Part shown: in pieces, positions 21,456-26,528 of the stretch | Layout of the letters: each line of letters opens with the position of its first letter | Numbering within the stretch: position 1 is the first letter of the stretch | Assembly: GCF_004010195.1 (NCBI RefSeq) | Contig: NC_057734.1 | Location: 21,357,261 to 21,421,260 of the forward strand | Reading direction: 5' to 3' | DNA: 64,000 nucleotides | Source: Chiloscyllium plagiosum | Lineage: Eukaryota | Made by a program: the position numbers and the translations under genes | Notes under the pieces: model-generated | Seen by the model: only the letters and a program-made list of their open reading frames with translations | What the model was told of the DNA's origin: nothing | The model's database searches: none

Positions 21456-21490
21456 CACCAGGCTTACTGAAGCCACCCCGGTCGACACCG
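21456..21490 (-). CDS. EWSR1: EWSR1 exon 9 (35 nt)
   Basis: ccctgcag|C GGT GTC GAC CGG GGT GGC TTC AGT AAG CCT GGT G|gtaagt = GVDRGGFSKPG. Confidence 0.94.
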
Positions 21491-21941
21491 CTGCAGGGAC
21501 AAATATGAAGAAATGAAGTATTCCCTTAAGCCAGTACCTCTTGAGCCTAAGGCTCAATGATGATGAAACTCGTGCCTCTTTTAAAGCACTGGCTAAGGCC
21601 TCTGAAGTTTCACCAGTTTTCATCTGCGAGTTTGCCTTTCTTCACAGTAGTTCTCCTAAAGCTTTCGTACACCCTCCAAAACCATATACACCTTCACTGT
21701 TTGACTTGCCAGTAACAGGGTTCTGAACAACTATAGTTGGTGCATGCAGTTTTATAACAGAACTGTTAAGAAACCATTAAACTAATTTTTACATTACTCT
21801 TTAACTTCCAATTAAATTACATATTACTGTATAATAAATACCATGTTTACATTACAAGTGTACAATACCATGCTTTTATGTATTACTCCACTTGCATACA
21901 CCATACATATTTTTTTGTCCATACATATGTAGAAAACGTGT

Positions 21942-22024
21942 CTAGTCCCATTTTTCAATATGCTGCCGGCTCAGTCAAAATAGTTTAAAGTATTGAAGTG
22001 TAAACAAGGCTCTCACTTTGTAAC
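21942..22024 (-). other. EWSR1: EWSR1 intron-8 alternative terminal/poison exon
   Basis: ctacag|G TTA CAA AGT GAG AGC CTT GTT TAC ACT TCA ATA CTT TAA = LQSESLVYTSIL*, in phase with exon 8. A second frame gives LSRQHIEKWD* (21974-21942). Both match the human short-isoform tail as I recall it. Confidence 0.8.
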
Positions 22025-25000
22025 CTGTAGCATATAAATGCGACAAAGCATGTTAACATAGTTTCCATATTCAAGCATTTAAAAAACTGTATTGGCATTA
22101 TTAAAACTACATTCTAATACTTACCTGCAGACAAGGGAGTGAAAGCAGTATCGTACTGCTTAGGCTCTGTATTTATAGTTAAATTCTTCCACAGAAGAAC
22201 AAACTTGTAACAAGTTGTGTAAAATGGTTAACTGCTCAATGGGAATTTTAGCTGCACCCACTACAGCCCTTCTCCCAAAAGAAAAAAAAACTGCCAACCA
22301 ACCCAAACTTTAAAACATTCTGAATATTTATATTTTATCCTGATCGATTATATGTGTCCTTTCCTTCATCCTCAAATTTATTTCCTTACCCATTGCTTTT
22401 ATTTAGGCATTTAAAAAATAACCTACCAATAATGCACTCATTTCTCAGGTTAAACAGTTTTATTATACTTTTACCCATAACTTTTAAAAAAAAACATAAG
22501 TTTAAATCTACTCCTATAAAAAAAGGTTCAGGTAGGAGAGGACAGCATGTTTGGGAAATTATCCTGTTTTTTGGGAGGAGGAGAAAAGAATCTACACCAA
22601 AGCTGAAACACAGGTCAATACTTTTATAAGGTTATTTCTTAGGGAAACATTAAAAACCACAGTATCTGCTCATAATACAACTTTAGAGTATGAATATGCT
22701 TTCGCTTTGACCAACATTGGCACAGTGTCGTGGAATCCCAATTTACAATAACAGTGTAGGAGAAATATAGCTGTTGTCTCCCAAACTATAACGATTTTTA
22801 AGACTGGTGCCCCAGTGCAAGAGTTTTCACACAATCTAGGGAACAAATGGACGGATGGTCAACAAACTCAATTTCCAACATCTAGACCAACTCCTCTGAC
22901 CCAACCACCCTTGAAACTAATTGTGTCTTCCACCCACACTTGTGCATGGTTCAGAGAGAAATACTAACCACACAACTGTATTTGGTTCAAGAATTCTTTT
23001 TTTTTAAATCAAAAGTTTTAGAAATAGGTCATTGTACATTGACTAAACATGCATCCAACAATTCAAGAATATAAGGATGTATGGACTTGGAGTAGATACC
23101 AGAGACCCTTAAAAATGGATATTTAATACATCTGACCAATGTTGAGAAAATTTTGCAAATCCGTCATTTGCGCCACCACATTTTACTCTAGCTATACTCA
23201 TTTTTCAGAGCAACAAACCTGCTCAAATAACATACATGATTTATGAATAGAGAACAAAAAGAATTTCATTTCTTTCATGTTCAATATTATATTTTAAAAG
23301 CCAGAGGCTCATGTTGGGATACAAACCCGCAGGTGCTGGAAACCATATTACCTCACTGAAGTAACCAAATTATGTTGTGATTAAAAGAGAGCAAAAGCTG
23401 ACAAGCTGCACAACCACAGAAGGGCAGTATAGCAGAGCTGGTTCTGCTCCACAACTGACATTCATGCTCTCCAGCAAGAGCACAATCTCTGGCTGATACA
23501 TTTCCCTAGCCCAAGGAGATGGAGCAATTTTTAGTGCCGCATTGTTACACTGTTTGAAACCAGTTAACTCAGCACCAACCACTGATAAGACTTTTGGGTT
23601 AGCATATTGTGTGCAGCTCAGCCACTCACCATGTATACATTTACCCACAAGTGGTTTTTAAATATAGCCCAATAAGTCACATTTACATTTAAATATCAAT
23701 ACATCAACATTTCATATAGGTATCCTTTAGATACTTGCAGGGCATTTAGTCATTAATAAATGTTACCAATGTGGGAAACTAAGTCATTTTCCACATGCCC
23801 ATCAGATGAGCATTTAAATTTTCTTTAACAGAACCAGTGGTTAAAATATATTACACCAAACTGCCCTGTTTGGAAGGGTACCACAAAGACTGAGCCATTT
23901 ATGCGTTTTCATTATAACGCACAGAAATGTGGGATGACAGGCAACTTCAGATTTAAAATGGCAGTGCATTAAGTTTTTGTACCTCTGGAGAAACAACATA
24001 CTTACCTTCATTTTTTTCAAATATATATCATGCTGGATTGGCAACTTTGGATTCTTAATTTTTATTGTTATCACGGTAGCAGTAAAATTGGGATACAAAT
24101 GTGCGTGGCAGCATGAATCTAACAGATTTGAAATTGTTGCCCAATCCACTCAAGTGCCAAAACTGCATCTACAAGGATGCCAGGAATCACTCGAACATCT
24201 CTTAAGTGGTCACTAGTATAATACAAGTAACATCCAGTTGCCAGGGTCAGTGGAATTAGAGTATGCATACCCATAGATGTGCATTATGTGTAACCTGGGT
24301 ATCACTATCCAAAGAAAAAAATCTTTAATTTTTTTCAATAAAAGCAGTAACATGCACACCCTTTACCCTCTGGTCACTTCCCTTTCTAAGAGCAATGGCA
24401 TATCAAGGGATAATGTTCTATTGGTGCCAGCAGCTTTCTGATGCATCAACCAAGTGGTCATTCTTAAATATTTGACAGTATTGTTGAAAGCTAATTGTGC
24501 ATTACCCAATTCTTATACCACCATCCCAAAAGGGACACTAGTCAAACAGGAGTAAAATCTTGGCCAATATTTCCTGTGAGCCCTCGCAAAATCAAGGCTG
24601 GTTGCAACATTTATAACATTGGCTAATTTGGTATAAACCAAGGATTAAGACCATATGGCTCAACACCATAATTTACAGGGCATAGACAAACCATCAGAGG
24701 AGTAAAATCTAGACTACTATTAGAATAGCAATCCTGCACCAAGAATGACATTTAGGACGATAGAAGAAGTTTGGTCATAGCAATTCAGTTGATAGGCAAC
24801 CATTTTAAGCAATTAAAATTAAAAAACCCATTTGAGGAGGTTGCTCAATGCTCTGCCTCTAATTCAAGCATATTTTTACATTGTTAATTTTAGTGCAAAC
24901 CCCTTACTGGCAAGTCCAAATTTTAAGAAAAAGACCTGTAAAAAGAACTCTATTTTCCACTGACCCTGCCTATTACTGCAAGGAATATCCCGATAATGCT

Positions 25001-26347
25001 TTCAGCTCCCTTGTTGATTAATATACAAATACAATGGAGTTTTTTAAAATGCAAAGACTATAGGGTTTCCATTGCCCATATTTTCTTAGGCAAAAAGCAT
25101 AAAGGAGCATTTAGGGCTACAGTGATTCATTTACATTACTTAGCACATCACTACACATTTTTAAAAAACATTAGCTTCCTGGCAAATGGAAACCCTATTA
25201 ACTTAAGTCAAGTTAACTTCCAAATGTTGAAGTGAAACCTTTATCATATCCTCCTATATAGAAGCACAGCAACCAGCTAGTTTCTACATTGAGGTTGCTA
25301 GTGAGACAAACAAAATTAGCCACAAGTCAACTAACTTTTATAAATTGCTGCATATATTTTGAAGTAATTAATAATGGCATATGCATAATGCAAAGCCTAT
25401 ACTGGCAAACTGCAAGTAAATGCATATTAAACACTACAAAATGAAACCCAGGCTCCAAACAACCAATTTAACAAGCTTGTAACACTTGTACCCCACAATT
25501 TTGTCATTTAAAAAAAAAATTAATTCACATTCCTCAAATTAAGTAAAATACCCAGATGGAAGGAACCAAGCCTCCCCCCCACCCGCCAACTTTCAAAACA
25601 GGAACTAGATTAATGTTTGAAAACACCAAATTTCAATGTGTAATAAAATCACCCAAGTTTTCATCCACCTTAAAAGATAATCATATTCTTTTATGAAATT
25701 GGATTTTTTTTAAACACTCAAAGCACGTGTTTCAGGATTAAAAGGTTTCACCCAGAAAGGCAATGTCTGATTTATGTGGAGTTAGGTGTTGCTGCATTTT
25801 CATTAAAAATTAATCATTTCATTTAATTAACAGACAATTGGTTCACCAAGTTTTAAATAGTTTCCAACTGCAAATTCCATTAATCTGCTGATTTTACGAA
25901 GTATTTAAAAGCAGTCACAAAGCAAAATTAAGAGTACATCTATGACTCTGCCTGGACATTTATTTTCTACTTGAGTAGCAATTAGAATAAGCACACTGGC
26001 AAATTATTCCACAGAGGTTGGACATTGCCTTTGGAAAATTAGAACCAGGGCTGAAAATTGCAATCATTTTACTTTTTAAAGATTTGAAAATAATTTTAAG
26101 GTAGACAACTAATTTTTTTTAAAAATATCATGTACAGATATTTACTTTTCAATTAAAAAAACAAGCTTTAGAACCGGAGCATCTGGCTCTCAATGACTGC
26201 AAAACAACTGGAACTTTGCCAGTTCTACCTGAAGGACCTTGTCAAGTACTTCAGAAAAATTCACACTTTCAGCCCAGTATAAGGTAATTGTTGCTTTGGG
26301 GTGACTTTTTGCATTAAAACCTCTCTAAAAGGAAGAGGTCATCTTAC

Positions 26348-26528
26348 CCCATTGCACCTCGTCCACTCCGACCGCCTCTACTGTAACTACTTCCTCTACT
26401 TCCTTGATCATAGCTCCCACGACTTCTGCTCCGGTTGTCAGAGCTACTGGTTGGTGCTCCATAGCTACTCTGGTCTTGTCCATACCCACTCATGCTATTA
26501 GTGGATGGCTGCTCCTGCCTATAAGTAC
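26348..26528 (-). CDS. EWSR1: EWSR1 exon 8 (RGG1)
   Basis: TYRQEQPSTNSMSGYGQDQSSYGAPTSSSDNRSRSRGSYDQGSRGSSYSRGGRSGRGAMG; 181 nt; tag / gtaaga. Confidence 0.94.

What the first reader, a model, noticed from the sequence alone, without database searches (positions are those of the whole stretch)
22118..22145. Juxtaposed 3'/5' splice site (uucacucccuugucugCAG|GUAAGU) in EWSR1 intron 8: candidate recursive splice site
Seen on minus: a pyrimidine tract plus CAG followed immediately by a perfect GTAAGT donor at 22124, exactly 100 nt upstream of the alternative-exon acceptor at 22024. If exon 8 splices here and reads through, the result is ATG GG|G TAA, an immediate stop. Established: recursive sites have this AG|GT form and their cryptic exons often carry premature stops, but they are mostly described in very long introns. 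Inference: a ratchet or switch in a ~4.9-kb intron that chooses between productive exon 9 and the truncating exon.
Basis: partly seen in the sequence, partly recalled or inferred. Interest (0 to 1): 0.7.

Follow-up and report, generated by a model that had tools for sequence, protein, structure and literature searches.

The report
Back-to-back splice site in EWSR1 intron
In a shark EWSR1 gene, an intron's strongest splice-acceptor and strongest splice-donor signals sit back to back, 100 bases before an alternative last exon known from humans, and they likely form a switch that helps decide whether the RNA is held back, cut short or completed, although no RNA evidence shows this yet.

Summary
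The motif is real and unlikely to be chance. At 22124 (minus strand, EWSR1 intron 8, 4,857 nt) lies a perfect 11-of-11 complement of this genome's U1 snRNA 5' end, the best of 320 GT sites in the intron. Directly before it is the intron's best YAG acceptor by pyrimidine count (14 of 16). The 11-mer occurs 1,574 times genome-wide; 0 of 30 sampled copies have such a tract. The acceptor 100 nt downstream starts the known ntEWS alternative last exon. The FUS paralog has a homologous internal acceptor, with its best internal donor 134 nt upstream and an acceptor-like site 10 nt before that donor. Use of the site is not shown: the read lay had no coverage there, and conservation in other vertebrates was not tested. 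Best reading: a zero-length decoy exon / U1 gate for the last exon (0.40). Rivals: true recursive site (0.25), donor of an upstream poison exon (0.20), chance (0.15). Ten literature searches found no description of the site.

The parts
26348..26528 (-). EWSR1 exon 8 (human numbering), ends ATG GG, phase 2; its own donor starts at 26347
   Evidence: Exons 8+9+10 translate to an exact substring of the named EWS-like protein P0004; donor 6 of 11 U1 matches
21491..26347 (-). Intron 8, 4,857 nt
22125..22144 (-). Pyrimidine tract and CAG: acceptor half of the dual site
   Evidence: 14 of 16 pyrimidines; top YAG of 265 AGs in the intron; above 9 of 10 real EWSR1 acceptors scored, below the annotated exon 10 acceptor at 15; branch-like yTnAy at 22140 and 22179
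22117..22127 (-). Perfect 11-nt U1 complement: donor half, GT at 22124
   Evidence: 11 of 11, -14.0 kcal/mol; best of 320 GT sites in the intron and above 10 of 10 real EWSR1 donors scored
22143..22161 (-). Predicted 8-bp hairpin that covers the two AGs nearest upstream of the site
   Evidence: In both MFE and centroid structure; one of 2 perfect-stem places in the intron; the region as a whole folds no better than shuffles (z -0.58)
22025..22124 (-). Possible 100-nt inner intron between the dual site and the last-exon acceptor
   Evidence: Branch-like yTnAy 29 nt before the acceptor; its 3' part aligns with the FUS paralog; splicing not shown
21770..22024 (-). Ortholog of the ntEWS alternative last exon; the 3' end is inferred from the human length
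   Evidence: First 37 nt match the human 3'-RACE exon printed in PMC3712730 at 36 positions (by eye); frame gives GLQSESLVYTSIL*; no AATAAA or ATTAAA between 22024 and exon 9
22017..22124 (-). Candidate 108-nt RS-exon ending at a weak donor at 22016
   Evidence: 5 of 11 U1 matches, -4.6 kcal/mol
22125..22271 (-). Rival: candidate 147/144-nt poison cassette exon ending at the dual site
   Evidence: Acceptors at 22271 (GAG, 14 of 16 pyrimidines) and 22268 (AAG, 12 of 16); in frame with an internal stop; use not shown
21456..21490 (-). Exon 9, productive route
   Evidence: P0003 and P0004 read RGxMG-GVDRGG

Best explanation
The site is a back-to-back acceptor and perfect U1 site 100 nt upstream of the EWSR1 alternative last exon, and it likely works as a zero-length decoy exon that gates the fate of intron 8. 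Shown by sequence: both halves are the strongest of their kind inside the intron, the neighbouring exon is the ntEWS last exon, and FUS has a similar donor/acceptor layout. Inferred: U2AF/U2 and U1 would load here and compete with the exon 8-exon 9 pairing, favouring retention. U1 bound about 320 nt before the presumed poly(A) region would block cleavage or mark unspliced, cleaved RNA for nuclear decay; exon 8's donor is about 4.5 kb away. Only RNA in which exon 8 is spliced to 22024 loses this U1 site and could become stable ntEWS mRNA. Occasional catalysis at the site would be recursive splicing that leaves no trace in the mRNA.
For: Rarity and coincidence of the two halves. In 10 other EWSR1 introns no internal GT exceeds -11.1 kcal/mol, and that best one has no tract. 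Unanchored, the best of 235 windows of intron 8 against the FUS intron is 22147-21978; the 170-nt unit scores 62 with 0 of 300 shuffles as high. The same window is best against TAF15, with 2 of 300. The best internal donor of FUS (of 148 GT) lies 134 nt before its homologous acceptor and has a top-ranked AG 10 nt upstream; the best donor of TAF15 (of 437 GT) has an AG 54 nt upstream. Literature passages: decoy exons sit in retained introns of 1.8-3.3 kb in RNA-processing genes and need both splice sites (PMC7373989); Ewsr1, Taf15 and Fus carry FUS-regulated retained introns (PMC7337901; the Ewsr1 intron is not named in the passages seen); FUS controls the Ewsr1 intronic poly(A) site (PMC4441052); a 5' splice site plus a poly(A) junction triggers exosome decay, one example 208 nt apart (10.1101/2024.07.23.604837).
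Against: No RNA evidence at the site: 0 depth over 22062-22441 in 4 of 4 runs laid. Conservation outside this genome was not tested. Homology of the donor-side part to FUS is not significant alone (score 27, 242 of 300 shuffles as high). In the EWSR1-like TAF15 element the donor is degenerate, and FUS versus TAF15 is not significant (24 of 300). GTRAGT counts per intron are at chance (3 vs 3.48, 1 vs 1.24, 0 vs 3.15). The shark last exon has no canonical poly(A) hexamer, so it may not be terminal. One fold leaves the U1 site mostly paired, another unpaired in the centroid. A U1 and a U2AF footprint overlapping at one CAG may not be bound together (inference).
Confidence: 0.4

Rival explanations
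1. True recursive (ratchet) site. Exon 8 splices to 22124 and the rebuilt donor then splices to exon 9 or to 22024. The reverse order is also possible: the 100-nt or 634-nt inner intron goes first and regenerates an acceptor.
For: AG|GT form with both halves strong; rebuilt donor stronger than exon 8's own and than the donor at 22016; stop at the start of the would-be RS-exon; recursive sites occur over a range of intron sizes (PMC10156609).
Against: Intron only 4.9 kb; defining downstream donor weak; FUS and TAF15 have 10 and 54 nt, not 0, between acceptor and donor; no EWSR1 row in the supplements searched (weak, tables may lack gene names); no junction data.
Confidence: 0.25
2. Donor of an ordinary poison cassette exon upstream (22271 or 22268 to 22125, 147/144 nt, in-frame stop). 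The tract at its end is incidental or a distal exonic recursive site that promotes skipping.
For: CAG|GTAAGT is simply the consensus donor; a T-rich tract with 14 of 16 pyrimidines precedes 22271; typical exon size and a stop; distal exonic RS sites are described (PMC10156609); the FUS candidate microexon shifts the frame to a stop.
Against: The acceptors are GAG/AAG after a T run in an AT-rich intron; no protein with such a tail was found, but the two searches gave only 1 hit of 34 and 0 of 11 candidates; it does not by itself explain the strong tract at the donor.
Confidence: 0.2
3. Chance or lineage-specific sequence beside a conserved exon, without function.
For: The 9-mer is at chance level in the window; tests are post hoc within a large scan; donor-side homology to FUS not significant; a second near-perfect U1 site at 24005 shows such words occur in this intron.
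Against: If independent, 1,574 copies times 0.7% gives about 11 such dual sites in 3.6 Gb; this one lies on the sense strand 100 nt from a shark-human conserved exon.
Confidence: 0.15

Closest known systems
ntEWS alternative last exon of EWSR1 (NM_001163287; PMC8364332, PMC3712730, PMC4441052)
   Same: Same acceptor and exon start, in the same intron; FUS-controlled intronic polyadenylation in mouse.
   Different: The passages read do not mention an upstream dual splice site. The shark frame stops earlier and lacks the ATTAAA used in mammals.
Vertebrate recursive splice sites / RS-exons (PMC6224609, PMC10156609; Sibley 2015 seen only as cited there)
   Same: Acceptor directly followed by a donor motif; strong rebuilt donor; early stop.
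   Different: Short intron, weak defining donor, sits beside an alternative last exon; use not shown.
Decoy exons in retained introns (SF3B1, OGT, SNRNP70, SPTA1; PMC7373989)
   Same: Internal acceptor and donor in a kilobase-scale intron of an RNA-binding-protein gene whose family is regulated by intron retention.
   Different: The decoys whose length is given in the passages are 60-87 nt; this one would have none. Retention in the shark and dependence on the site are not shown.
Distal exonic RS sites / dual-specificity splice sites (PMC10156609)
   Same: One junction can be acceptor or donor.
   Different: Needs an upstream exon, which is only a candidate here.
U1 telescripting and the 5' splice site + poly(A) nuclear degradation code (10.1101/2024.07.23.604837)
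   Same: Strong unspliced donor a few hundred nt before an intronic poly(A) region.
   Different: Does not need the acceptor half; the shark poly(A) site is not mapped.

Membership tests
Recursive splice site / RS-exon | 3' splice site directly followed by a 5' splice-site motif | tested here: met
Recursive splice site / RS-exon | Rebuilt donor strong enough to outcompete the RS-exon's own donor | tested here: met
   -12.2 versus -4.6 kcal/mol U1 duplex; a duplex energy, not MaxEnt
Recursive splice site / RS-exon | Downstream donor that defines the RS-exon | tested here: inconclusive
   Only weak donors among 45 GT sites to 21500; nearest 22016, 108 nt, within the range of the weaker real EWSR1 donors
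Recursive splice site / RS-exon | Very long host intron (classical cases, recalled; relaxed by PMC10156609) | tested here: not met
   4,857 nt; not a strict criterion
Recursive splice site / RS-exon | Junction reads, lariats or sawtooth showing two-step use | tested here: inconclusive
   No coverage at the site in 4 of 4 runs, and the laid stretch held neither exon 8 nor the last-exon acceptor
Recursive splice site / RS-exon | Conservation of the site in orthologs | not tested
   No relative genomes held; the related-species contigs laid stop at 22530
Decoy exon | Lies in a retained intron over 1 kb | tested here: inconclusive
   Length met; run X8 holds 22530-24900 as unspliced contigs at depth about 200, but its RNA status is a guess
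Decoy exon | Has both a 3' and a 5' splice site | tested here: met
   By sequence, with zero length between them
Decoy exon | Blocking its splice sites lowers retention | not testable with these tools
   Needs antisense or minigene work
Distal exonic RS / poison cassette exon | An upstream exon ends at the site | tested here: inconclusive
   Candidate 147/144-nt exon with a stop; no transcript or protein support
U1 gate on an intronic poly(A) site | Strong unspliced donor upstream of a used poly(A) site | tested here: inconclusive
   Donor met; no canonical hexamer in the shark exon, only variants at 21884, 21880, 21756 and GTTAAA at 21805
ntEWS alternative last exon (the neighbouring exon) | Same intron, acceptor and start sequence as the human exon | tested here: met
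   36 of the first 37 nt identical, by eye; frame GLQSESLVYTSIL*

The most novel reading that the evidence does not exclude
All three FET genes inherited, from before their duplication, one intronic control unit: a very short exon-like acceptor/donor pair upstream of an internal acceptor. In EWSR1 the exon has shrunk to zero length (10 nt in FUS, 54 nt in TAF15), giving a traceless splice switch that routes each transcript to retention, ntEWS or full-length EWS, inside the intron where sarcoma translocations cluster.
Probability: 0.2. Interest if true: 0.75.

Novelty: new variant of a known kind. Interest (0 to 1): 0.5.

Why it matters
EWSR1 intron 8 holds a regulated short isoform and is a frequent translocation site (PMC3712730, PMC8364332), and FET proteins control each other through retained introns (PMC7337901). 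The cis element that sets the choice between retention, ntEWS and exon 9 was not named in the passages read. A single 30-nt dual site is a precise target for one alignment, one junction query and one antisense test. If conserved in mammals it would offer a handle on EWS dosage and a link between microexons, decoy exons and recursive sites. If it is shark-specific it is a curiosity.

Tried and rejected
Sequencing runs: no RNA holder listed on record among the 19 holders; this is no evidence either way. The one lay that ran (4 of 24 listed runs, stretch 22062-24900) gave 0 reads from X22 and X20, only a 35-nt spurious piece from X2, and X8 contigs over 22530-24900 with no splice-like joint. It did not cover the site and could not show junctions to exon 8 or to the last exon. 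Protein searches for truncated or cassette isoforms: 1 of 34 candidates passed (full-length type) and 0 of 11; 5 of 5 cluster members show only the exon 8-exon 9 join or start later; too shallow to count. blastn of intron 8 parts against the paralogs found only short low-complexity hits. Secondary structure is not above shuffles. The stop codon was rejected as evidence. An 8-nt microexon at the start of the last exon was considered; its donor is weak. Earlier findings of the scan: none. Literature: 10 searches gave no paper describing the site. Supplement searches for gene names or recalled hg19 coordinate prefixes were blank (only eCLIP rows; no such motif; one search showed only GO rows of a cut file). 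Files 14-15 of PMC6110456, file 11 of PMC4441052 and bioRxiv supplements were not seen. Metagenome collections were not scanned for vertebrate orthologs. No MaxEntScan or SpliceAI was available; strength was scored by U1 duplex energy and pyrimidine count.

Full report
Gene and place. The window's minus strand encodes, letter for letter in exact 10-mers, 549 of 549 residues of P0004, which its source names RNA-binding protein EWS-like of Chiloscyllium plagiosum. A close relative has RRM and RanBP zinc-finger domains, and the flanking open frames match CH and rhomboid domains. That fits the GAS2L1-EWSR1-RHBDD3 order recalled from human. Exon 8 is 26528-26348, exon 9 is 21490-21456, and the intron between them is 4,857 nt. 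Exon numbers follow human usage.

Observation. The tract, the CAG ending at 22125 and the GTAAGT at 22124 are there, 100 nt before the acceptor at 22024. The short motif alone is ordinary: 1 seen, 1.14 expected. The site is more than that motif. It is the exact complement of the first 11 nt of U1 in 4 of 4 U1 copies read, of 42 found. It ranks first of 320 GT sites in the intron and above 10 of 10 real EWSR1 donors scored. Its tract (14 of 16 pyrimidines) ranks first among YAG acceptors of 265 AGs in the intron and above 9 of 10 real acceptors; the annotated exon 10 acceptor has 15. The 11-mer occurs 1,574 times in the genome, fewer than its reversed control at 2,102. None of 30 fetched copies has a tract of 13 or more, and 26 of 3,748 CAGs in those loci reach 14. 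Assuming independence, about 11 such dual sites are expected genome-wide. These tests are post hoc and use simple scores.

The neighbour is known. The exon starting at 22024 matches, at 36 of its first 37 nt by eye, the cryptic terminal exon cloned by 3'-RACE from human EWSR1 intron 8 (PMC3712730, passages and appendix table). It encodes the ntEWS tail (PMC8364332, passages). In mouse, FUS promotes use of its ATTAAA poly(A) site (PMC4441052, passages and 10 of 11 supplements). The shark exon has no canonical hexamer; GTTAAA at 21805 lies at about the matching distance, so termination there is inferred only.

The stop codon is not diagnostic. Exon 8 joined to 22124 and plain retention of intron 8 both give RGAMG*. 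Recursive use in either order would give mRNAs identical to direct splicing, so only intermediates can show it.

Paralogs. FUS (contig C39) and TAF15 (C28) were found with the RRM exon (names from recalled exon patterns) and fetched. In the equivalent intron, after the phase-2 exon ending in MG, the best of 235 EWSR1 windows against both paralogs is 22147-21978. The unit scores 62 against FUS (0 of 300 shuffles as high) and 62 against TAF15 (2 of 300). The signal comes from the acceptor side; the donor side alone is not significant (242 of 300), and FUS against TAF15 is not either (24 of 300). Still, the best internal donor of FUS (of 148 GT) lies 134 nt before its homologous acceptor, with one of four top-ranked AGs 10 nt upstream; that 10-nt exon would shift the frame to a stop. 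The best donor of TAF15 (of 437 GT) has an AG 54 nt upstream and lies 452 nt before a FUS-like acceptor element; its separate EWSR1-like element has a degenerate donor. So the internal acceptor looks older than the FET duplications. The upstream acceptor/donor pair is suggestive only.

RNA. No listed run was usable at the site. In one search all 4 runs had zero depth over 22062-22441, and the stretch held neither exon 8 nor the last exon. One run of a related species holds 22530-24900 as unspliced contigs at depth about 200; this fits retention but its RNA status is a guess, and the tool warns that holes prove nothing. Protein searches were too shallow to test isoforms.

Mechanism. I rank a zero-length decoy/U1 gate first (0.40). 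The intron is in the size class of decoy-bearing retained introns (PMC7373989, passages), FET genes are regulated by retention (PMC7337901, passages and one section), the paralogs suggest a tiny exon rather than a fixed zero-length junction, and the donor is the nearest strong U1 site to the presumed poly(A) region (319 nt against 4,542 nt), where it could block cleavage or trigger decay (10.1101/2024.07.23.604837, passages). All functional steps are inferred. A true recursive site (0.25) fits the form and the strong rebuilt donor, but the defining downstream donor is weak (criteria from PMC6224609, passages; PMC10156609, passages). A poison cassette ending here (0.20) has a plausible 144/147-nt candidate. 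Chance is 0.15. These readings are not fully exclusive.

Novelty. Ten searches of the held library and supplement searches in five papers found no description of this site. The library lacks most subscription papers, some supplement files were not seen, and tables may list coordinates without gene names. PMC6110456 was searched in supplements only (13 of 15 files). PMC13561874, PMC8573982 and PMC6547761 were read as passages and had nothing on the site. The last exon is known; the dual site is a candidate new variant of known decoy and recursive elements. Verdict: real, well-placed, function unshown; interest 0.5.

Noticed in passing
G000:C39:27200800-27200656 (minus; in L005): FUS paralog intron: pyrimidine tract and AAG, 10 nt, the intron's best donor, then 134 nt to an internal acceptor homologous to the ntEWS acceptor; a candidate frameshifting microexon and a FUS counterpart of the last exon.
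   Followed up: partly
G000:C28:42071330-42071470 and 42073124-42073650 (plus; in L009): TAF15 intron holds one EWSR1-like element with a degenerate donor, one FUS-like acceptor element, and a candidate 54-nt exon ending at its best donor.
   Followed up: partly
window 23998-24008 (minus): Second near-perfect U1 site in intron 8 (10 of 11), no tract directly before it; possible acceptors 163-532 nt upstream. Two contigs of run X8 meet at 23995, unexplained.
   Followed up: partly
window 20809 and 20803 (minus): Tandem acceptors 6 nt apart at exon 10; the named protein uses the upstream one. A similar repeated CAG start is at exon 11.
   Followed up: partly
window 26528 and 22024 (minus): Exon 8 and the alternative last exon themselves begin with GT, so both are AG|GT junctions with weak rebuilt donors.
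   Followed up: no
window 25260-25050 (minus): A block within intron 8 that looked by eye like a possible second regulatory element; not compared with anything beyond the paralogs, where it gave no hit.
   Followed up: no
window 22464-22377 (minus): Three AATAAA hexamers 260-340 nt upstream of the dual site, around a further donor-like site at 22389; possible upstream intronic poly(A) signals.
   Followed up: no
window 18327-18240 and 17800-17740 (minus): Shark EWS carries proline/threonine and glutamine/proline insertions around the RRM; related proteins P0003 and P0007 vary in their length.
   Followed up: no
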